Positions 3,434 through 31,832 are shown, counted from the first letter of the stretch. The stretch: DNA of 64,000 bases from Candidatus Woesearchaeota archaeon (GCA_018696595.1 JABHQW010000001.1:1-64000), one strand, 5' to 3'. Made by a program: numbers and translations. Notes: generated by a model from the letters alone, not told the origin.

Positions 3434-4417
3434 ATGGCACTTTACAAAGTAATAGAAGGACAATCAGAAAACATGCAATGTCAAGCTTGTGTTAGAGAAT
3501 GTTACATTGCCCCAGATAAAACGGGTTTTTGTGGTAACCGTAAAAATACGGTTCAAAGGATTGAAGATTGTATACCAAATAATATTGTTGTAATTGATAC
3601 AAATGGGGTCCTGGGAGATAAACCAATTAAATATTTTGTTAAAGATGAGAATATTGTTTCTTGCTGCACCCCTGTTCTTTCTGTTGGAGGTTATAATTGT
3701 AATTTAGATTGCCAAGAATGCCCCAATGAATCAATGTCACATCCCCATGAGAAAGATGTGGGTTCTACAGAATACTTTTCTCCTGAGATGGTAATTGAAA
3801 TGGCAAAAAAGCAAGGTTTAGGATTTATTGCTTTAACTTATAATGAACCCGTGCCGTTTGTTGATACAACAATGGAACTAACGAGATTAGCTAGTCAAGC
3901 AGGAATTGAAACCATCTTAGTAACAAATAGTACTTGTACTACAGAGTTTCTTGATTTGTATCAAGAGAGTGGAGGCAAGATTGTTAGAATGGACTTAAAG
4001 GCTTCTTTAAGTTCTGGAAATAATTTTTATGAAAAGTATTGTAATTTAAAAGTTGTTGAAGAAGGAGAAGTAGTTACTATCGATAAAATTTTAGAGAGTA
4101 TTAAACATGCAAAAGAGATCGGATTACATTTAGAGTTGATGAGTGCAATCACTCCTTTTGATTATGTCCCCAGCAATTTTCCAAACGAAGAAGAATTCCA
4201 AAAAACTGCAAGATGGATTTTAGGAAACTTAGGTGCAGAAACTCCTTGGCATTTAGCTTTGTTTAGAACTAAAGGAAAAAATGTTGATATTGGTGCTAAT
4301 TTATCTAGGGTAAGAGATTATGTTCAGTTAGCAAAAAGTGTAGGATTAACAAGAGTTGGTTTAGTTGAAAAGATGTGTGATTGTCTTGAAATGGAAGAGT
4401 TTGAAGAAAAGGAATAA
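3434..4417 (+). CDS. Radical SAM enzyme, AmmeMemoRadiSam/PflA-like
   Basis: N-terminal CxxCxxxC...GFCGxR, CNLDCQEC (CxxxCxxC), TYNEP, DLKA, PWHL. Confidence 0.8.
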   Translation: MALYKVIEGQSENMQCQACVRECYIAPDKTGFCGNRKNTVQRIEDCIPNNIVVIDTNGVLGDKPIKYFVKDENIVSCCTPVLSVGGYNCNLDCQECPNESMSHPHEKDVGSTEYFSPEMVIEMAKKQGLGFIALTYNEPVPFVDTTMELTRLASQAGIETILVTNSTCTTEFLDLYQESGGKIVRMDLKASLSSGNNFYEKYCNLKVVEEGEVVTIDKILESIKHAKEIGLHLELMSAITPFDYVPSNFPNEEEFQKTARWILGNLGAETPWHLALFRTKGKNVDIGANLSRVRDYVQLAKSVGLTRVGLVEKMCDCLEMEEFEEKE

Positions 4418-4475
4418 AGTAGTTACGATTTTTCTCTAGAAATATTTATATAACTATTACAATTAGCTTGTTCTT

Positions 4476-6053
4476 ATGACAAAAGAAAAGAAAGAAAAGA
4501 GATCTTATCATTGGACAGACATTGCCGCAGAGAATATTATCCGCGAGAAAGGTGATAAAGAGAATTACGTTTTAGCTGCTGGTATTACTCCAAGCGGTGT
4601 GGTTCACGTAGGAAATTTTAGAGAAATGATCACTGTTGATTTAGTTAAACGGGCTTTAGAAAAGAAAGGTAAAAAAGTTCGTTTCCTTTATTCTTGGGAT
4701 GATTATGATGTGTTTAGGAAAGTTCCAAGTAATATGCCTAATCAAGAAATGTTAGAAAATCATCTGCGGAAAGCCATTGTTGATGTTCCAGATCCATTTG
4801 ACAAAGAAGATAGTTATGCTAGAAATAATGAGATAGCAGTTGAAAAAGATATTGCTAAAGTAGGAATTAAACCAGAATTTGTTTATCAAGCTAAGATGTA
4901 CCGTGCAGGTAAATATACTGAAGAAATAAAGACTGCGTTAGAAAATACAAATAAAATAAAGGAAATTTTAAACAAGTATAGGGAACATCCGCTTGAAAAA
5001 GAATGGTTACCAATCTCAATTTTCTGTGAAAGTTGTAATAAAGATACAATCAAGAAATTAGAATGGCGAGGAGATTATACCATCTATTACAAATGTGAAT
5101 GTAATTTTGAAGATGAATTTAATTTTGATAAAAAACCAGGCGTAAAGTTAAAATGGCGTATTGATTGGCCAATGCGTTGGCATTACGAAAATGTTGACTT
5201 TGAACCAGGCGGAAAAGATCATTCAGCTTCTGGGGGAAGTTTTGATACTGGTAAACAAATTTGTAAAGAAGTTTATGGTTCTGAAGCGCCATCATATATC
5301 ATGTATGAATGGATTGGCATTAAAGGTAAAGGACAATTTGCTTCTTCTTCTGGAAATGTTATTACTGTTAACGAACTCTTGGAGGTTTATGAACCAGAAA
5401 TAGTTAGATACCTTTTTGCTGGGACTCGACCAAATAGAGAATTTCAAATTTCGTTTGATACTGATGTTCTTGCTCTTTACGAGGAGTTTGATAAAGTTGA
5501 AAGAATTTATTTTGGATTGGAAGATATTAATGAAAAAGAGAATAGTAAAGCTAAATCCGCCTATGAATTAAGTTATATTGGAGATATTCCAAAAACAATC
5601 CCATACCAACCAAGTTTTAGACATTTGACTACGATGTTACAAATTTACAATTTTGATATTAACAAAGTTATTGGTTATTTTGAAAATGAATTGAAGAATG
5701 AGCATGATAAAAAACGGATAAGAGTAAGAGCAGAATGTGCAGAAAACTGGGTTAAGAAATTCGCACCAGAAGATTTTAGATTTCAGGTACAAGATAAGTG
5801 TCAAATAACTTTAGTTGATAAAGAAAAAGAGATCTTGCATCAAGTTGCTGATAAATTGTCTGAGAAAGATTGGACAGATAAAGAGTTACATGAAGAAATG
5901 TATATCTTAGTTAAAAATAACGATTTTCCTGTAGGGGACTTCTTTAAATTAGCTTATCGGGTTTTAGTTAACAAAGATAAAGGCCCAAGATTAGCTAGTT
6001 TCATTCTTGAAATTGGGAAAGAGAAAGTTGCTGAACTGTTTAAGGGTGTATAA
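4476..6053 (+). CDS. lysS: Lysyl-tRNA synthetase, class I
   Basis: GITPSGVVHVGNFRE, WRIDWPMRW, EPGGKDH, GPRLASFI. Confidence 0.97.
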   Translation: MTKEKKEKRSYHWTDIAAENIIREKGDKENYVLAAGITPSGVVHVGNFREMITVDLVKRALEKKGKKVRFLYSWDDYDVFRKVPSNMPNQEMLENHLRKAIVDVPDPFDKEDSYARNNEIAVEKDIAKVGIKPEFVYQAKMYRAGKYTEEIKTALENTNKIKEILNKYREHPLEKEWLPISIFCESCNKDTIKKLEWRGDYTIYYKCECNFEDEFNFDKKPGVKLKWRIDWPMRWHYENVDFEPGGKDHSASGGSFDTGKQICKEVYGSEAPSYIMYEWIGIKGKGQFASSSGNVITVNELLEVYEPEIVRYLFAGTRPNREFQISFDTDVLALYEEFDKVERIYFGLEDINEKENSKAKSAYELSYIGDIPKTIPYQPSFRHLTTMLQIYNFDINKVIGYFENELKNEHDKKRIRVRAECAENWVKKFAPEDFRFQVQDKCQITLVDKEKEILHQVADKLSEKDWTDKELHEEMYILVKNNDFPVGDFFKLAYRVLVNKDKGPRLASFILEIGKEKVAELFKGV

Positions 6054-25431: not shown

Positions 25432-25659
25432 TGGGCCTACAGGGACTTTCAAATCTCCAGGAAGATTTGTAGTCTCCTAAAGGATATTTGAACCCTGATC
25501 AACCGGTATCAACCCAAACTCTTCTTAAATAATTTGACTGCAGGGAAAATCCTGTTTTGATCAAACTTTTTTTAAAAATTTGGTCCGAAGCCGGCCGCAC
25601 TTTTTGGCTAGCGCCTAAACTTTGTCTGACGCCAAGTATCCAGGTTATGCTATAGGCCC
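25432..25659 (-). tRNA. tRNA-Arg(TCG) with three introns: D-loop (25601-25636, 36 nt), anticodon loop 37/38 (25508-25584, 77 nt), T-loop ~59/60 (25446-25486, 41 nt)
   Basis: Removing the three segments leaves a 74-nt cloverleaf: GGGCCTA/TAGGCCC, GCAT/GTGC, GCCGG-CTTCGGA-CCGGT, CAGGG-TTCAAAT-CCCTG; splice sites may be off by 1 nt. Confidence 0.9.
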
Positions 25660-25703
25660 ACAATAAAAGGATAAAAGAAGAAGGTATTTTTAAAGTTATT
25701 GTC

Positions 25704-26354
25704 TTATTCAGTAATGTGTGGATTTCTTAACTGATAAAACTTGTGTTCTTCATGTTTGATCACTCCATTTAAATAACCTATTTCAACCAATCCATCACAA
25801 ACTTTTTCTAAACATTCTAAGGGAAGACGTTCATCAAAAGAAAATAAAGTTTCAACAGGAAAACCCGATTGTTCATCTCCATTTAAAATAGAATGGGGAA
25901 TGTTTTCTTCAACCAACTTTTGCACATAAACAGATCTCATAATAGATTCAACTTTAGTCCAAAAAAGAGCCCCATTTTTCCAAAGTACCTTACAACCTGT
26001 TCTATCAGCAACTTGACGGTCACGAGGAGAAATATTTCCAGTAATATATCTAAAATTTATTTGTCTTTCATTTTTACGAAATAAAACCCCCATTTGTTCA
26101 GGAGCTAAAGATTCTGTACTACCTTCTTCTAAATAACCAGAAGCGTCAGGAAGCCTCATGTCTGAAAATCCCCCCCTAGGGAAATTTCCTGTCGAGGATA
26201 AGTAAAGTAAAGCGTCTTTTCCTTTAGTAAAAGATTTATAAGATAATTCTAATAAATCGGCTTTTGCTTCTAATAATTCCAAGATACATTCCTGATCGTC
26301 CAAAAACATTAAATCAATTCCTCTCCTAGCCATGTTTCTATTATGAAGTGACAA
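25704..26354 (-). CDS. Response-regulator receiver domain protein with C-terminal wHTH-like region
   Basis: FLDD, FSDMRLP (phospho-acceptor Asp), YITG, LWK; likely start ATG 26333. Confidence 0.6.
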   Translation of the reverse strand: MSLHNRNMARRGIDLMFLDDQECILELLEAKADLLELSYKSFTKGKDALLYLSSTGNFPRGGFSDMRLPDASGYLEEGSTESLAPEQMGVLFRKNERQINFRYITGNISPRDRQVADRTGCKVLWKNGALFWTKVESIMRSVYVQKLVEENIPHSILNGDEQSGFPVETLFSFDERLPLECLEKVCDGLVEIGYLNGVIKHEEHKFYQLRNPHITE

Positions 26355-26416
26355 TTGATATTTAAATGTTTCCAGCCAAAAAGTTAATAAATGAAGTAAA
26401 TAAAAGTAGGATTATT

Positions 26417-26571
26417 GCCCCGGTGGCCTAGTGGCTATGGCACCTGACTTGTAGCCAACTATCTACTATGTTTACAATAGTAAAGAAAGCATGGTAAGAT
26501 ATCAGGAGATCGCGAGTTCAACTTCCGTTAGGGAGTTACAATCCCATGGATTGAAAGTCTCGCTCGGGGCT
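26417..26571 (+). tRNA. tRNA-Thr(TGT) with anticodon-loop intron (26454-26500, 47 nt) and T-loop intron (~26523-26557, 35 nt)
   Basis: Spliced 73-nt cloverleaf: GCCCCGG/TCGGGGC, CCTGA-CTTGTAA-TCAGG, GCGAG/CTCGC. Confidence 0.9.
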
Positions 26572-26600
26572 CTTTTTTCTTTTGTTACTCTAAAGTAATG

Positions 26601-26622
26601 AAATAAACGAAAGATTTATAAA
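26601..26622 (+). promoter_or_regulatory. BRE-TATA promoter AAATAAACGAAAGATTTATAAA
   Basis: Archaeal BRE+TATA consensus; 21/22 identical to 31859-31880. Confidence 0.7.
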
Positions 26623-26672
26623 TCAAATTTGTTTCTAGATCATATCACACTAATTATGAGGAAAATAATAAA

Positions 26673-27155
26673 ATGACAGATACAGGAATGGAATTAACAC
26701 AATCGCATGAACATGCATTAGAAACTGCAGTTCACCAATTTGGAATTGATTTAGTACCAATTGGTAGAGCTTATATAGATAGTTTAAATCACGAAGATTT
26801 TAGAGAAAGCGGAGTTTATGTTCTTTTTAGACCATTAGATGTAAATCCAGAATTGGGAGATTATAAAGAAAGGTTAGAAATGCTTACTAGAACTTATCTT
26901 CCTGGAGCTACAGAAGAATTTTTACAATTAGAAACTGATCGAAGAGAACTTTCTACTCAGTTAACTACAAGTAGAATGGGACTTAATAAACGAGAAATTG
27001 CTGATTATGAAAAAAGATTTCCTTTAGGTAAAAGCCGAGGTTATGAAGTTTTTGTAAAAGGCGGAAGAGGAAGTATTGACGTTTTAGCATTAAGAGAAAC
27101 TAATACTATCCACACAGCAGAAATGAAAGATCATGATTTAGTTCCTTACGAATAG
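26673..27155 (+). CDS. Hypothetical protein
   Basis: 160-aa ORF after promoter and GAGG SD. Confidence 0.7.
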   Translation: MTDTGMELTQSHEHALETAVHQFGIDLVPIGRAYIDSLNHEDFRESGVYVLFRPLDVNPELGDYKERLEMLTRTYLPGATEEFLQLETDRRELSTQLTTSRMGLNKREIADYEKRFPLGKSRGYEVFVKGGRGSIDVLALRETNTIHTAEMKDHDLVPYE

Positions 27156-27167
27156 AGGTAAAATAAA

Positions 27168-27407
27168 ATGAGAAGAATGATTACTGATAAAAAGCGTGAA
27201 GAAGATTTAGCTAATGAAGTTATAGAAGATTTGGAACATTGGACAAATCCATATAATGGTGCAGTTAATTCAAGTACAACTTATCAACAACTAGGCGTTG
27301 GATTTTTTGCTGCTGAACCAGACTCACAAGAATTATTGGATCAAGGATTTAATAATCGTGTTGATGGCTCATATTTTAGAAATAATCGAATTGAAGAGGA
27401 TGAATAA
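27168..27407 (+). CDS. Hypothetical acidic protein
   Basis: 79 aa, GAGGT SD. Confidence 0.6.
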   Translation: MRRMITDKKREEDLANEVIEDLEHWTNPYNGAVNSSTTYQQLGVGFFAAEPDSQELLDQGFNNRVDGSYFRNNRIEEDE

Positions 27408-27408
27408 A

Positions 27409-27843
27409 ATGAAAATATTAGAAAAAATTGTTAATGCAGGAAAATACATTGCAGGAACCGCTAGTCTTTTAGCTATGGCCAGCGGATGTGCAACTACTAC
27501 AACTTATGATGTAAACCAATTCTGTGGAAAAATGCCATTTCAAGATGGAACAGTAAAAGAAGCCGTAAAGAGAGTTGATGACCGAGGTATTGAGATATCA
27601 TATTTAAGAGTAGAAAATGATTCAGAAATATTTGAAAAGATGGATTATGATGGAGATGGATTTTCTGAAACTCAAGTTTATAGGAAAACTCACTCAGATG
27701 GTTCAAAAACTTTTGTAAGATGTGCAAATGATGAAGGAGTTTTGAATGGTCAAGTAACAAAAAAAGGAGCTTGGACTTTAAGTCAAACTGAAAAGAATGC
27801 CGCAGGAGAAATAGTTAAAGAAGATTATCAAATTGCTAGATAA
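27409..27843 (+). CDS. Putative lipoprotein
   Basis: Start reassigned to ATG 27409; signal peptide with ASGC lipobox. Confidence 0.65.
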   Translation: MKILEKIVNAGKYIAGTASLLAMASGCATTTTYDVNQFCGKMPFQDGTVKEAVKRVDDRGIEISYLRVENDSEIFEKMDYDGDGFSETQVYRKTHSDGSKTFVRCANDEGVLNGQVTKKGAWTLSQTEKNAAGEIVKEDYQIAR

Positions 27844-28027
27844 AATGACAGGAATCAAATACCAAAAACCAGTACTTGAAACAAGACCATTATTTGAACC
27901 TTCTGGGCAAGTTGATTTAGATGCTTTTTATATTGCGGCGAAAGTTATTGATGAAAAGAAATATGTTAAGATGTATCAAAGAGAATTAAAAGCAGTAATG
28001 GCAGATAAATTAAATAAAGAGGAATAA
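27833..28027 (+). CDS. Hypothetical protein
   Basis: 64 aa, tightly packed in the operon. Confidence 0.55.
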   Translation: MLDKMTGIKYQKPVLETRPLFEPSGQVDLDAFYIAAKVIDEKKYVKMYQRELKAVMADKLNKEE

Positions 28028-28030
28028 AAA

Positions 28031-28672
28031 ATGACATACCAAATACATGATGTTAACACAATAAAAGCTCGCTTCGGAGAATCAGCAGAAGCATTTGAAC
28101 AAGGACTTAATTTTCAACATTCAGATTCAATTTTCTTGAGAGTAAAACAAAGGTCAGTAAATCCAGAAGAGATGGACTGTAGTTTAGAAGGAATGGACTT
28201 ACTAATCTCTGGAAACCATTATGAAGCAGAAGAGGGTGAACTTGTTGAGTTAGATTATGAGAATGAAACTTGGCACAAACCAGTTCAAGGGCAGAAAGTA
28301 GAAGTTCCTTTTAAGGGTACAGTACAAGTAACCCATCTTGGAGAAGATTCTGTTCGTCCCCCATTTCAGATAAAGGAAGGAGAATTTGATTATAGTAAAA
28401 CCACATTTTTATTTCAAAGAGAAGATTGCCCTGATTTATATTTCTTAGGAGACTCTTTGAGAGGAGCTTACGGAACAGTTGGCTTAAGTCAAGAAATTGT
28501 GGATGAATTAAGTAAAGAAAATGCATTATACAAAGTTCTTACAGAAGAACCAATAACATTAGGCCCAAAACAAACATTAATAGTGCCTCACGAAGGAATT
28601 GTTAGAGTTAGTTTAGAAGCAAGATTAAATGATCCAGATAAAGAAGTTGTTGTTAAAGGTTCAGGGATTTAA
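28031..28672 (+). CDS. Hypothetical acidic protein
   Basis: 213 aa, GAGG SD. Confidence 0.7.
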   Translation: MTYQIHDVNTIKARFGESAEAFEQGLNFQHSDSIFLRVKQRSVNPEEMDCSLEGMDLLISGNHYEAEEGELVELDYENETWHKPVQGQKVEVPFKGTVQVTHLGEDSVRPPFQIKEGEFDYSKTTFLFQREDCPDLYFLGDSLRGAYGTVGLSQEIVDELSKENALYKVLTEEPITLGPKQTLIVPHEGIVRVSLEARLNDPDKEVVVKGSGI

Positions 28673-28776
28673 TTTTAATTTTCTTTCTCTTTTTTTCCGC
28701 AATATTTATATATATAACAACTATTTTCAACATAAAATAATGATAGATGTGATAAAGCATTCTGAAGGTGTTTAAT

Positions 28777-29412
28777 ATGAATGAACAATTAAAAACTGGT
28801 ACTACTACGGTAGGAATTGTATGTAAAGACGGAATTGTTTTAGCGGCTGATAAAAGAGCAACCGCAGGAACAATGATCGTGGACAAAAGAGCAGACAAAG
28901 TACACATAATCAATGACGATTTTGCTGTAACTTGGGCTGGGACTGTTTCAGATGCGCAATTAGTAACTAAGTTACTAAAAGCAGAACTAAAACTGAAAGA
29001 AGTTAAAACTAACAAAAGACCAACTGCAAAAGAAGCAGCTAATTTATTGGGTGGATTATTATATTCAAGTATTAGAAGGCCAAGCATGATTCCAAGCATT
29101 GCTCATTTTTTGATGGGTGGAAAAGATACAAGTGGGATTCATCTTTACGATTTATTCCCTGATGGCAGTGTAACAAAAATAACCGACTTTGTATCTTCGG
29201 GATCTGGAAGTGTATTCGCTTTAGGAGTATTAGAAACACAATACACTCAAGATATGACTACAGAGAAAGGTGTTGAATTAGTAGTAAAAGCTATCAATAC
29301 CGCCTTACAGAGGGATTCCTGTTCTGGAAACGGAATTGACGTAGTTGTAGTTAAGATGGAAGACATCAAGAAGGTGATGCACAAAGAAATAAGTTACAGT
29401 TTATTAAATTAA
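28777..29412 (+). CDS. psmB: Proteasome subunit beta
   Basis: KTG/TTTVG processing site, AADKRAT, SGSG; ATG 28777 after GAAGGTG. Confidence 0.97.
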   Translation: MNEQLKTGTTTVGIVCKDGIVLAADKRATAGTMIVDKRADKVHIINDDFAVTWAGTVSDAQLVTKLLKAELKLKEVKTNKRPTAKEAANLLGGLLYSSIRRPSMIPSIAHFLMGGKDTSGIHLYDLFPDGSVTKITDFVSSGSGSVFALGVLETQYTQDMTTEKGVELVVKAINTALQRDSCSGNGIDVVVVKMEDIKKVMHKEISYSLLN

Positions 29413-29604
29413 ATTTTATCTTCATAAAAAGGCGCAAGTGCTTTTTTATGACTTTTTTCATATTCACTTTAAATATTCTTAAAAGAATTAAACAATGAGG
29501 ACCCAATAAAATAAGGGTAAAATAAAACAAAAATGGCAGACATAAAGAAAAATTTTCAATTTTTAAATGTCGGCCATTTGGAAAATAAATAAAAGGAAAA
29601 TAAA

Positions 29605-31494
29605 ATGGCAGATATATTAAAAGAAATTATTAAAGTACTACCACACAATAAAATATCAGATGCAGCTTATGAAGCAGCAAACATCGTACTTTACACTAAA
29701 GATAAAGATTACTTCTTAGACAATAAAGGAACAATCAGAGAAGCAGTTAAACAATTCAAAAAAAGAATTGAACTTAGACCAGACCCATCAATGTGTATGG
29801 AAATGGAAAAAGCAGAAAAACTAATCAAAACACTAATTCCAAAAGAAGCAGGAGCACAAAATTTCATTTTTGATGCACCAAGATCACAATTAATTATTCA
29901 TGCTGATAAACCAGGCGTAGTTATTGGAAAACAAGGAGAAATTCTGAAAGGTATTAAAGAAAAAACAATGTGGGTACCATTAATTAAAAGAAACCCACCA
30001 ATAAGATCAAAACTAATTGAAAGTATTCGTTCAGTATTATATGAAAACGCTGATTATAGAAAAAAGTTCTTAGATAAAACCGGTCATCGAGTTTATGATG
30101 GTTGGTTAAGAGAAAAAAAACACGAATGGGTAAGATTAAGTTTCTTAGGAGCAGCAAGACAAGTAGGAAGAGCTTGCTTATTATTACAAACACCAGAATC
30201 AAGAATAATTATGGATTGTGGGATTGATCCCAGTCAAGATGGACCAGAATCTTATCCTTACTTAGATGCACCAGAATTTAACATTGATGAAATTGATGCA
30301 GTTATTGTAACACATTCACATTTAGACCATAGTGGTTTAATTCCTTACTTGTTTAAGTATGGATATAAGGGTCCCGTTTATTGTACCTTGCCAACAAGAG
30401 ATGTAATGTCCTTATTACAGTTAGACATGGTTAAGATTCAAAGAAATGAAGGTAAAGACCCAATTTACACTAGTGAAGAAGTTAGAGACATGGTTTTACA
30501 TACAATCTGCTTAGAGTTTGATGCAGTTACAGATATCACACCGGATGTAAGGATTACTCTTTACAATGCGGGACACATCTTAGGAAGTTCATTGGTTCAT
30601 TTGAATATTGGTAATGGTTTGCATAACATTGTTTTTACTGGCGATTTAAAGTATGGTCGAACAAACGTTCTAGAAGCAGCAAATACTCAATTTCCAAGAG
30701 TAGAAACTTTAATTATGGAATCCACTTATGGTGGAAAAGATAACGTTATGAACGAACAAGAAGCTGATGCATATATGGTTGATGTTGTTAAGAAGACCTT
30801 TGAACGTGGTGGAAAAGTTTTAATGCCCGTTCTTGGAAGTGGAAGAGCACAAGAAGTAATGATTATTGTTGAAAGGTTAATGAGAGAAAAGAAAATCCCT
30901 CAGGTGCCCGTATATTTAGATGGAATGTTATGGGACATCACAGCAATCCATACAGCCTATCCGGAATTCTTAAACAGAAACATTAGGCAACAGATCTTTC
31001 ATAAAGAAAATAATCCGTTCTTATCTGAAATATTTAAAAGAGTAGGATCTAAAAAAGAACGGGACCAGATTATTGCGGAAGAAGGTGCTTGCTTAATTCT
31101 AGCAACATCAGGAATGTTACAGGGCGGACCATCTGTAGAATATTTAAAACATCTGGCAGAAGGTAAAAAACATAGTTTAGTATTTTCTTGTTATCAGCCA
31201 CCTGGAAGTTTAGGACATCGTATTAGGGGTGGAGAAACCGAGATTATGATGAGAGAAAATGGTAAACAGCAAGTTCTTAGAATCAATATGGATGTGCACA
31301 AAGTTGAGATTACTAACCATTCAGATAGAAAGCAATTGATGAACTATGTTAAGAGATGTAACCCAACTCCAAGAAAAGTGATTTTAATGCATGGTGAGAG
31401 TTCTAGATGTCTAGACTTAGCTTCGTCTTTACATAAACAGATGAGAATTGAAACTAATGCACCTAAGAATTTAGAAGTTATTCGAATTAGGTAA
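29605..31494 (+). CDS. Beta-CASP ribonuclease aCPSF1 (FttA)
   Basis: KH-like N-terminus, THSHLDH, AGHILG, ESTYG, HSDR, HGE; synteny with psmB. Confidence 0.97.
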   Translation: MADILKEIIKVLPHNKISDAAYEAANIVLYTKDKDYFLDNKGTIREAVKQFKKRIELRPDPSMCMEMEKAEKLIKTLIPKEAGAQNFIFDAPRSQLIIHADKPGVVIGKQGEILKGIKEKTMWVPLIKRNPPIRSKLIESIRSVLYENADYRKKFLDKTGHRVYDGWLREKKHEWVRLSFLGAARQVGRACLLLQTPESRIIMDCGIDPSQDGPESYPYLDAPEFNIDEIDAVIVTHSHLDHSGLIPYLFKYGYKGPVYCTLPTRDVMSLLQLDMVKIQRNEGKDPIYTSEEVRDMVLHTICLEFDAVTDITPDVRITLYNAGHILGSSLVHLNIGNGLHNIVFTGDLKYGRTNVLEAANTQFPRVETLIMESTYGGKDNVMNEQEADAYMVDVVKKTFERGGKVLMPVLGSGRAQEVMIIVERLMREKKIPQVPVYLDGMLWDITAIHTAYPEFLNRNIRQQIFHKENNPFLSEIFKRVGSKKERDQIIAEEGACLILATSGMLQGGPSVEYLKHLAEGKKHSLVFSCYQPPGSLGHRIRGGETEIMMRENGKQQVLRINMDVHKVEITNHSDRKQLMNYVKRCNPTPRKVILMHGESSRCLDLASSLHKQMRIETNAPKNLEVIRIR

Positions 31495-31626
31495 GTGTTA
31501 GCAATCGCACTACCGCCAATGGAGGCGATTTTCTGAATATGTTCTCAAGATTACTAATACATGAAGCAACGCGAAGTGCTTGAGAACTGAGGAAAATAAT
31601 AAACGCCGTGCCGTAGTGCTATTTTT
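31495..31626 (+). ncRNA. Structured intergenic element E2 (candidate ncRNA)
   Basis: Helices GCACTAC/GTAGTGC, GGCG/CGCC, ATTTTCT/GGAAAAT, GTTCTCAAG/CTTGAGAAC; shares GTGTTAG, GAGGCG and CGCCGTGCC with E1. Confidence 0.6.
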
Positions 31627-31680
31627 TCATTGAATTTTACCTAAACTTTTATAAACCGCTTTATTTCTTTATCTTTTATT

Positions 31681-31832
31681 GCCAGCGTCGCATAATCCGG
31701 TATTGCGCTGGTCTTGAAACCTTTGGTTTTGACCTAATACCAGATAACCAGTTCCTTTTGGAATTCCCGGTTCAAATATCCCCCAGGGAGACTACAAATC
31801 TTCCTGAAGATTTGAAAGTCCGGGCGCTGGCG
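31681..31832 (+). tRNA. tRNA-Ser(TGA) with anticodon-loop intron (31719-31745, 27 nt) and T-loop intron (31777-31818, 42 nt)
   Basis: Spliced 83-nt cloverleaf with long variable arm: GCCAGCG/CGCTGGC, CTGGT-CTTGAAA-ACCAG, CCCGG-TTCAAAT-CCGGG. Confidence 0.92.

What the first reader, a model, noticed from the sequence alone, without database searches (positions are those of the whole stretch)
25446..31818. Near-identical T-loop introns shared by unrelated tRNA genes (Arg, Ser; related in Thr)
Seen: all three tRNAs carry an intron in the T-loop (~59/60). Arg (41 nt) TATCCTTTA-GGAGACTACAAATCTTCCTGGAGATTTGAAAG and Ser (42 nt) TATCCCCCAGGGAGACTACAAATCTTCCTGAAGATTTGAAAG match at about 37/42 positions, while their exons and anticodon introns are unrelated. 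The differences keep two internal hairpins intact (TCC/GGA vs TCCC/GGGA; CAAATCTT/(G/A)AGATTTG). The Thr intron has the same two-hairpin layout with different sequence and the same TTGAAAG end. In each case exon TTCA can pair with intron TGAA and leave a 3-nt AGT bulge (BHB-like). Established: intron transposition between tRNA genes has been described in Thermoproteales, and non-canonical introns need a relaxed splicing endonuclease. Inference: a T-loop intron family is spreading among the tRNAs of this DPANN lineage, with selection on internal structure beyond what splicing needs.
Basis: partly seen in the sequence, partly recalled or inferred. Interest (0 to 1): 0.75.

Follow-up and report, generated by a model that had tools for sequence, protein, structure and literature searches.

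The report
Portable T-loop intron shared by tRNAs
Three transfer-RNA genes of a small marine archaeon (Woesearchaeota) are each interrupted inside the T-loop by a short protein-spliced intron. This intron belongs to a conserved 40-base family that sits in different tRNA genes in different relatives, which gives a sequence-defined case for studying how archaeal tRNA introns multiply.

Summary
Window 25433-25659(-), 26417-26570(+) and 31681-31831(+) are tRNA-Arg(TCG), Thr(TGT) and Ser(TGA) genes with three, two and two introns. ARAGORN and Rfam miss them until the introns are removed. Each has an intron between T-loop positions 59 and 60.

The Arg and Ser T-loop introns are 88% identical (37/42), while the mature tRNAs are 56% identical. 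The genome has 21 such T-loop introns among about 37 tRNA genes. Six of them (Arg TCG, Arg TCT, Ser, Gln, Glu, Met) form one family, and the Thr intron is a distant relative (69-76%).

The family is an order-wide Woesearchaeales cassette (TATCCCAGAGGGAGACYACAAATCCCTCAGGATTTGARAG) found only at 59/60, in many different tRNA types. In same-genus genomes the orthologous Ser, Arg(TCG) and Arg(TCT) genes lack it. There it sits in Tyr or Phe instead, so it has been gained, lost or replaced recently.

The cassette's 3' tail pairs with the invariant T-loop (UUCR), which forms the splicing helix and makes the intron portable. How the DNA is copied is unknown. No RNA data were available.

The kind is known (59/60 introns in ARMAN-2, intron transposition in Thermoproteales); this is a new lineage and variant. 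The scan noted this cassette before on other DNA.

The parts
25433..25659 (-). tRNA-Arg(TCG) gene with three introns (acceptor 5' end at 25659; discriminator at 25432)
   Evidence: Acceptor and T-arm search, anticodon-arm parse, and ARAGORN Arg(tcg) 75 nt after intron removal. Independent metagenome contigs are identical.
25446..25486 (-). Arg T-loop intron, 41 nt, position 59/60, cassette subfamily A1
25507..25583 (-). Arg anticodon-loop intron, 77 nt (37/38 or 38/39 give the same product)
   Evidence: Anticodon-arm parse; spliced product accepted.
25601..25636 (-). Arg D-loop intron, 36 nt
   Evidence: Its removal restores D-stem GCAT/GTGC, and ARAGORN accepts the cloverleaf. The G001 orthologue has a different 19-nt insert at the same place.
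26417..26570 (+). tRNA-Thr(TGT) gene with two introns
   Evidence: identical in independent contigs.
26455..26501 (+). Thr anticodon-loop intron, 47 nt (boundary uncertain by 1 nt)
26523..26557 (+). Thr T-loop intron, 35 nt, position 59/60, subfamily B (distant relative of the cassette)
   Evidence: Subfamily B also occurs in Thr(GGT) of this genome and in Gln, Thr and Ser(GGA) genes of G002, G004 and G012.
31681..31831 (+). tRNA-Ser(TGA) gene with two introns
   Evidence: The G001 orthologue is 85% identical over exons and anticodon intron but has no T-loop intron.
31720..31746 (+). Ser anticodon-loop intron, 27 nt
   Evidence: Anticodon-arm parse with a 14-nt variable arm, confirmed by comparison with G001 and ARAGORN.
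31777..31818 (+). Ser T-loop intron, 42 nt, position 59/60, cassette subfamily A1

Best explanation
These are functional multi-intron tRNA genes of a marine Woesearchaeales (DPANN) archaeon. Each T-loop insert is a protein-spliced (bulge-helix-bulge type) intron between nucleotides 59 and 60.

How splicing is set up. The intron carries its own splicing partner. Four bases near its 3' end (UGAA or CGAA, positions -6 to -3) pair with the universally conserved T-loop bases U54-U55-C56-R57 to make the 4-bp central helix. The T-stem is the outer helix, and the last two intron bases plus U60 (AG|U) form the 3-nt bulge at the 3' cut. The 5' cut falls two bases after the helix (A58 A59 | U), next to the intron's own hairpin or hairpins. 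The genome's single alpha-type splicing endonuclease (EndA) is inferred to cut, and RtcB to join the exons, which restores UUCRAAU.

Why it is portable. The exon partner is the same in nearly every tRNA, so one intron sequence works in any tRNA without co-adaptation. A 38-43-nt cassette with two conserved hairpins has accordingly been copied, lost and replaced at this one site in many different tRNA genes across the order, including recently within this genus.

Shown: gene structure, family membership, covariation, and presence/absence among relatives. Inferred: actual splicing, and the DNA-level copying. Its mechanism is unknown. My best guess is ectopic gene conversion or break repair between tRNA genes using the short conserved T-arm flanks.
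For: Gene reality. ARAGORN accepts all spliced products. No second gene with these anticodons was found among about 37 catalogued tRNA genes.

Splicing motif. The exon 54-57 / intron -6..-3 helix is paired in 20/20 copies (UA 14, UG 5, CG 1 at pair 6-52), including exon CTCA with intron TGAG in tRNA-Met. A conformer with both 3-nt bulges open lies within 0-3.2 kcal/mol of the minimum free energy for all 21 T-loop introns.

Enzymes. There is one EndA gene (C7:39420-40040, 207 aa). Its best solved relatives are the N. equitans alpha subunit (7e-39) and M. jannaschii EndA (3e-35). The Tyr/His/Lys positions align, and no paralogue is found. RtcB is present.

Family. Four copies are at least 88% identical and six are 74-95% identical pairwise, joined by single links of at least 80%; the best shuffled pair reaches 0.70. 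Host tRNAs are 0.50-0.61 identical, except Gln/Glu at 0.76.

Turnover. The G001 orthologues of Ser(TGA), Arg(TCG) and Arg(TCT), and the G002 orthologue of Arg(TCG), have intact T-loops. G001 carries the cassette in Tyr, where this genome has an unrelated 18-nt intron. G002 carries it in Phe, where this genome has none. Ser(TGA) of G003 and G004 carries unrelated 31-nt and roughly 85-nt introns at the same site.

Breadth. A generic 59/60 pattern hits 33 of 40 related genomes, with controls near zero. Cassette copies occur in at least 12 genomes of at least 9 other GTDB families and in 47 metagenome contigs, in tRNAs of about 15 amino-acid types.
Against: No RNA evidence exists here, so splicing is inferred.

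The 5' cut site is not a clean 3-nt bulge in most copies. It has one unpaired base opposite it or lies in a junction loop, and in tRNA-Trp it lies in a plain loop. The literature says alpha4-type enzymes cut only strict motifs (PMC3239211, PMC5829648). This EndA is colinear with the M. jannaschii enzyme except for a Lys-rich N-terminal tail. Either its specificity is broader than that paradigm or a helper was missed.

No enzyme for copying was identified: no reverse transcriptase and no Y1 transposase.

A test for co-converted flanks failed. The odd U50-U64 pair of Arg(TCT) is also present in the intron-less G001 orthologue.

Gain and loss cannot be polarised rigorously without a species tree.
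Confidence: 0.85

Rival explanations
1. The cassette is old and vertically inherited in each tRNA. The near-identity reflects strong purifying selection or concerted evolution (gene conversion among pre-existing copies), not new insertions.
For: The cassette is nearly invariant across many families of the order, so constraint is strong. The four closest copies differ mainly in a 4-5-nt patch.
Against: Orthologous Ser(TGA), Arg(TCG) and Arg(TCT) genes in same-genus genomes have no T-loop intron, and Tyr and Phe carry the cassette there instead. Every genome has a different set of hosts. A derived subfamily signature (TCTTCCTGRAGAT) is shared by different tRNAs within this genus.
Confidence: 0.07
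2. The cassette is primarily a small mobile DNA element whose spread is driven by a DNA endonuclease. Free-standing LAGLIDADG homing-type genes next to tRNA genes make breaks, and repair copies the intron in. Splicing by EndA only makes the insertion harmless.
For: All three free-standing LAGLIDADG genes of this genome lie within about 120 bp of intron-bearing tRNA genes, one of them next to the cassette-bearing Arg(TCT). In relatives, 22 of 30 homologue loci have a tRNA-like gene within 250 bp. At DNA level the cassette has two palindromes.
Against: No LAGLIDADG gene lies near the Arg, Thr or Ser genes of the window. Most tRNAs next to these genes have other introns and no T-loop intron. The Arg(TCT)-LAGLIDADG-Cys arrangement is conserved in G001, where Arg(TCT) lacks the cassette. 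No target site is known. No cassette copy was found in viral contigs.
Confidence: 0.15
3. RNA-level spread: the excised intron is inserted into another tRNA transcript by a reversal of splicing, copied to DNA by a reverse transcriptase, and recombined into the gene.
For: The insertions are exact to the splice sites. The tail is complementary to the T-loop of any tRNA, which would guide an RNA-RNA encounter.
Against: No reverse transcriptase domain in a 97%-complete genome. Exactness is also what selection on essential tRNAs would leave.
Confidence: 0.05
4. Assembly artefact: a repeated 31-mer was wrongly threaded into unrelated tRNA genes of a metagenome-assembled genome.
For: The genome is a metagenome bin, and short-read contigs do break at the repeat.
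Against: Contigs from other studies reproduce the Arg and Thr genes with no differences. Copies lie on four contigs with unique flanks and exact T-loop placement. Dozens of independent genomes and contigs show the same design.
Confidence: 0.01

Closest known systems
ARMAN-2 (Ca. Micrarchaeum acidiphilum) pre-tRNA-Cys(GCA) and pre-tRNA-Pro(GGG) introns at 59/60 (PMC3239211)
   Same: A DPANN archaeon with the same insertion site (59/60). The motif is relaxed (hBH) and uses the T-stem as outer helix. The Cys intron was cut in vitro by the organism's own endonuclease.
   Different: ARMAN-2 uses a three-unit epsilon2 enzyme with a special loop; here there is a single alpha-type gene colinear with the strict M. 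jannaschii enzyme. The ARMAN Cys intron is 13 nt and no intron family was reported. Here a conserved 38-43-nt two-hairpin cassette recurs in many tRNAs and genomes.
Transposed tRNA introns of Thermoproteales (Fujishima et al. 2010, Mol Biol Evol 27:2233, as summarised in PMC4033280)
   Same: Similar intron sequences occur in different tRNA species of one genome and among relatives, and were read as intron transposition and rapid gain. [quoted passage not shown] Here the figure is 6 of 21 T-loop introns.
   Different: A different phylum (DPANN, not Crenarchaeota) and a different enzyme type (single alpha gene, not alpha2beta2). In the genomes and contigs searched, this family appears at only one site and is conserved across an entire order. 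I read the 2010 paper only through reviews.
[quoted passage not shown]
   Same: Many introns per tRNA gene, repeated gains at splice-competent sites, and standard annotators miss them.
   Different: In Asgard only 1.5% of introns fall in cross-type families and no route of arrival was found. Here copying between tRNA types is evident.

Membership tests
Archaeal endonuclease-spliced (bulge-helix-bulge) tRNA intron at non-canonical position 59/60 | Removing the insert restores a standard cloverleaf with a 7-nt T-loop | tested here: met
   ARAGORN calls Arg(tcg), Ser(tga), Thr(tgt), Gln, Glu and Met on the spliced sequences; nothing is found before removal.
Archaeal endonuclease-spliced (bulge-helix-bulge) tRNA intron at non-canonical position 59/60 | A 4-bp central helix flanked by 3-nt bulges, with each cut two bases 3' of the helix strand | tested here: inconclusive
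   The 3' half is canonical in all copies (T-stem, AG|U bulge, UUCR/YGAA helix). The 5' half is relaxed in most copies: one base opposite the bulge, a junction loop, or a plain loop in Trp. It is strict only in Tyr.
Archaeal endonuclease-spliced (bulge-helix-bulge) tRNA intron at non-canonical position 59/60 | Splicing endonuclease and RtcB ligase encoded in the genome | tested here: met
   One EndA gene with aligned catalytic residues and RtcB.
Archaeal endonuclease-spliced (bulge-helix-bulge) tRNA intron at non-canonical position 59/60 | The insert is absent from mature tRNA | not testable with these tools
   No RNA run holds this DNA.
Mobile (transposed) tRNA intron families, Thermoproteales type | Closely similar introns in tRNAs of different amino-acid types within one genome, with unrelated exons | tested here: met
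   Intron identity is 0.74-0.95 across Arg, Ser, Gln, Glu and Met; host identity is 0.50-0.61 apart from Gln/Glu at 0.76.
Mobile (transposed) tRNA intron families, Thermoproteales type | Presence/absence or replacement at orthologous genes of close relatives | tested here: met
   Ser(TGA), Arg(TCG), Arg(TCT), Tyr and Phe differ between this genome and G001/G002.
Mobile (transposed) tRNA intron families, Thermoproteales type | Host lineage Thermoproteales with a heterotetrameric alpha2beta2 endonuclease | tested here: not met
   The lineage is Woesearchaeota, with a single alpha-type gene and no beta paralogue at tblastn E<=100. It works like that family but is not a member of it.
Self-splicing group I/II introns or other curated RNA families | Match to a curated covariance model; ribozyme-sized core | tested here: not met
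   No Rfam match in the window. The inserts are 35-42 nt.
IS200/IS605-type hairpin-ended miniature DNA elements | A Y1 transposase available in the genome | tested here: not met
   No PF01797 match in the 97%-complete genome.

The most novel reading that the evidence does not exclude
The cassette is a genuinely mobile genetic element of a new sort. It is a 40-nt intron that uses the invariant T-loop both as its landing site in DNA and as its splicing partner in RNA. It would be mobilised by DNA breaks made by the tRNA-adjacent free-standing LAGLIDADG endonucleases, or by an unknown enzyme. Its conserved extra hairpin and linker would serve propagation, or a function of the excised RNA, rather than splicing.
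Probability: 0.15. Interest if true: 0.85.

Novelty: new variant of a known kind. Interest (0 to 1): 0.6.

Why it matters
How archaeal tRNA introns arise and multiply is unresolved. Transposition was inferred in Thermoproteales, and a 2026 census of Asgard genomes found no route of arrival.

Here a short, sequence-defined cassette shows recent gain, loss and replacement events between species of one genus, always at a single nucleotide position. The structure gives a simple reason for its portability: it pairs with the invariant T-loop. That offers concrete substrates for in vitro splicing and for tests of copying.

The case also questions the rule that single-subunit alpha-type endonucleases handle only strict motifs.

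On the practical side, more than half of this genome's tRNA genes are invisible to standard finders. tRNA counts and completeness estimates for Woesearchaeota are therefore too low.

Tried and rejected
RNA evidence: no RNA holder was listed for the stretch, so splicing could not be checked.

Co-conversion footprint: I suspected that the U50-U64 mismatch of Arg(TCT) came from copying the Arg(TCG) 3' flank together with the intron. The intron-less G001 orthologue has the same mismatch, so I rejected this.

Box C/D guide RNA inside the intron: the copies contain no C-box (RUGAUGA), and CUGA occurs in only some of them, by direct reading of alignment A1. Rejected.

IS200/605-like hairpin element and retro-homing: no Y1 transposase and no reverse transcriptase in the genome.

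Viral carriers: no cassette copy in the viral contig collection.

Other positions: a cassette with any base but G after GATTT was found in none of 301 genomes of the order. About 33 of 81 loose-pattern matches in metagenomes were chance hits in unrelated sequence.

Nested single-hairpin model: it is far lower in computed energy but has less covariation support than the two-hairpin model. I kept it as an alternative.

Neighbouring ORFs in the window (proteasome beta subunit, FttA/aCPSF1, Fic, several unknowns) gave no mobile-element signal.


Full report
**What is there**

ARAGORN and Rfam find no tRNA in the window and only 14-18 in the whole genome, which is 1.19 Mb, 32% GC and 97% complete. 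I searched for a 5-bp T-stem, an NTCRA loop with an optional insert, and a matching 7-bp acceptor stem. That search recovers many hidden genes.

In the window these genes are:
- tRNA-Arg(TCG), 25433-25659, minus strand. Introns lie in the D-loop (25601-25636), the anticodon loop (25507-25583) and the T-loop (25446-25486).
- tRNA-Thr(TGT), 26417-26570. Introns at 26455-26501 and 26523-26557.
- tRNA-Ser(TGA), 31681-31831. Introns at 31720-31746 and 31777-31818.

After the introns are removed, ARAGORN calls ordinary cloverleaves of 75, 74 and 84 nt. Contigs from two other marine metagenomes reproduce the Arg and Thr genes without a single difference. Contigs break at the repeated 31-mer in Ser, as short-read graphs do at repeats.

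**The observation**

The Arg and Ser T-loop introns are 88% identical (37/42). Their mature tRNAs are 56% identical, and their other introns differ even in length. The core 31-mer occurs four times in the genome with at most one difference, always in a T-loop: Arg(TCG), Ser(TGA), Gln(TTG) and Arg(TCT). More diverged copies sit in Glu(TTC) and Met(CAT). The Thr intron is 69-76% identical to cassette copies, against a shuffle maximum of 0.61.

**Extent**

The genome has 21 introns at 59/60 among about 37 catalogued tRNA genes. Record titles of the closest EndA loci name Woesearchaeota / Nanoarchaeia. A generic 59/60 pattern matches in 33 of 40 related genomes, with reversed-pattern controls near zero. 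T-loop introns are therefore normal for the order.

The cassette consensus is TATCCCAGAGGGAGACYACAAATCCCTCAGGATTTGARAG. It occurs at 59/60 in at least 12 further genomes from at least 9 other GTDB families, each time in another tRNA: Arg(CCT), Phe, Leu(GAG), Leu(TAA), initiator Met, Trp, Cys and others. It also occurs in 47 metagenome contigs (33 distinct sequences), in tRNAs of about 15 amino-acid types by ARAGORN. No copy with a non-T-loop tail was found in 301 genomes, and none in viral contigs.

**Turnover**

Same-genus genome G001 is syntenic here: Ser and Arg lie on one contig about 7.5 kb apart.
- Ser(TGA) and Arg(TCG) in G001 have intact T-loops.
- G002 Arg(TCG) and G001 Arg(TCT) also lack the intron.
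- G001 carries the cassette in tRNA-Tyr, where this genome has an unrelated 18-nt intron at the same site.
- G002 carries a copy in tRNA-Phe, where this genome has none.
- Ser(TGA) of G003 and G004 holds unrelated 31-nt and roughly 85-nt introns at 59/60.
- Subfamily B (the Thr type) sits in Gln, Thr and Ser(GGA) in other genomes.

Other intron positions also differ between congeners. The four closest copies and the G001 copy share a derived signature relative to the order-wide consensus, which points to copying within this lineage.

**Structure and mechanism**

In all 20 aligned copies, exon bases 54-57 pair with intron bases -6 to -3. Compensated changes occur, for example exon CUCA with intron UGAG in Met. 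The T-stem covaries as expected. This arrangement gives a canonical outer helix, a 3-nt bulge (AG|U60) and a 4-bp helix at the 3' cut. It places the 5' cut two bases after the helix.

That model is 98% paired, with eight doubly changed pairs; pair 36-44, for instance, is CG in 9 copies and UA in 8. A nested single hairpin has less covariation support but a much lower computed energy. The bottom two pairs of hairpin 2 compete with the exon helix, because the intron contains a near copy (ACAAAU) of the T-loop.

A splice-competent conformer lies within 0-3.2 kcal/mol of the minimum free energy for all 21 T-loop introns. Most have a relaxed 5' side.

The genome has one EndA gene of the single-unit alpha type. 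It is colinear with the M. jannaschii enzyme apart from a 35-residue Lys-rich N-terminal tail, and it has no paralogue. RtcB is present. Published work holds that alpha4 enzymes need strict motifs, although it reports disrupted tRNA genes in DPANN lineages with alpha4-type enzymes (PMC5829648). This point stays open.

**Why the intron is portable, and how it might be copied**

The exon half of the splicing helix is the invariant T-loop, so the cassette works in any tRNA. This explains why one family can occupy so many hosts at one site.

The copying mechanism is not identified:
- No reverse transcriptase and no Y1 transposase are present.
- A flank co-conversion footprint did not hold up.
- One lead remains. 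All three free-standing LAGLIDADG genes of the genome abut intron-bearing tRNA genes, and 22 of 30 homologue loci in relatives do so too. None lies near the window's genes, and most of their neighbouring tRNAs lack T-loop introns.

**Comparison with what is known**

The site (59/60) and the relaxed motif are known from ARMAN-2, where the intron was cut in vitro (PMC3239211). Shared intron families across tRNA types are known from Thermoproteales (PMC4033280). I found no paper in the searchable library that describes this in Woesearchaeota.

Earlier notes of this scan reported the same kind of cassette on other genomes, and LAGLIDADG neighbours in this genome. I used them as leads and re-tested what I cite.

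**Verdict**

The feature is real. It is a new lineage and a position-locked variant of a known phenomenon.

Noticed in passing
G000 C3:151502-152218, C2:56336-56908, C1:36224-36445 (outside the window); loci L134-L163: Free-standing LAGLIDADG endonuclease genes lie within about 120 bp of intron-bearing tRNA genes: Arg(TCT)/Cys, initiator Met and Leu(TAA). In 18 related genomes, 22 of 30 homologue loci have a tRNA-like gene within 250 bp.
   Followed up: partly
L108 (G001:C27:38957-39097) and L104 (G002:C98) versus window 25433-25659: Orthologous tRNA-Arg(TCG) genes of three same-genus genomes carry introns at different positions: D-loop, 37/38 and 59/60 here; D-loop, about 30/31 and the variable loop in G001; one anticodon-region intron in G002. 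Intron turnover is fast at many sites, not only at 59/60.
   Followed up: partly
L112 (G002:C45:1300-1750, minus strand): A tRNA with a Gln-type body reads CTTAGG in the anticodon loop (UAG instead of UUG). It carries a subfamily-B T-loop intron and a D-loop insert. It could be an anticodon change, a pseudogene or an assembly error.
   Followed up: no
G000 C7:39420-40040 (L001:1474-2097, minus strand): The only EndA has a 35-residue Lys/Ser-rich N-terminal extension. Many Woesearchaeota homologues align from near its start. It may be an RNA-binding tail that relaxes substrate choice.
   Followed up: no
G000 C5:4770-4895, next to tRNA-Val (C5:4890-4980): A tRNA-like 3' end (T-stem, T-loop with a 20-nt insert, Val-like acceptor) sits behind a body that does not fold as a tRNA. 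It may be the remnant of an integration into tRNA-Val.
   Followed up: no
window 4350-4697: With introns allowed, ARAGORN calls a tRNA-Ile(GAT) with a 253-nt intron here. Rfam gives nothing. I did not examine it; it may be a false call or another disrupted gene.
   Followed up: no
L229, L187 and other metagenome loci: Cassette copies whose tail reads UGGG-AG sit in T-loops reading UCCG or UUCA. The helix is kept through G-U or G-C pairs, which is further covariation between exon and intron.
   Followed up: partly
window 25704-26354 (minus strand): A 216-aa ORF between the divergently placed Arg and Thr genes has no Pfam match.
   Followed up: no
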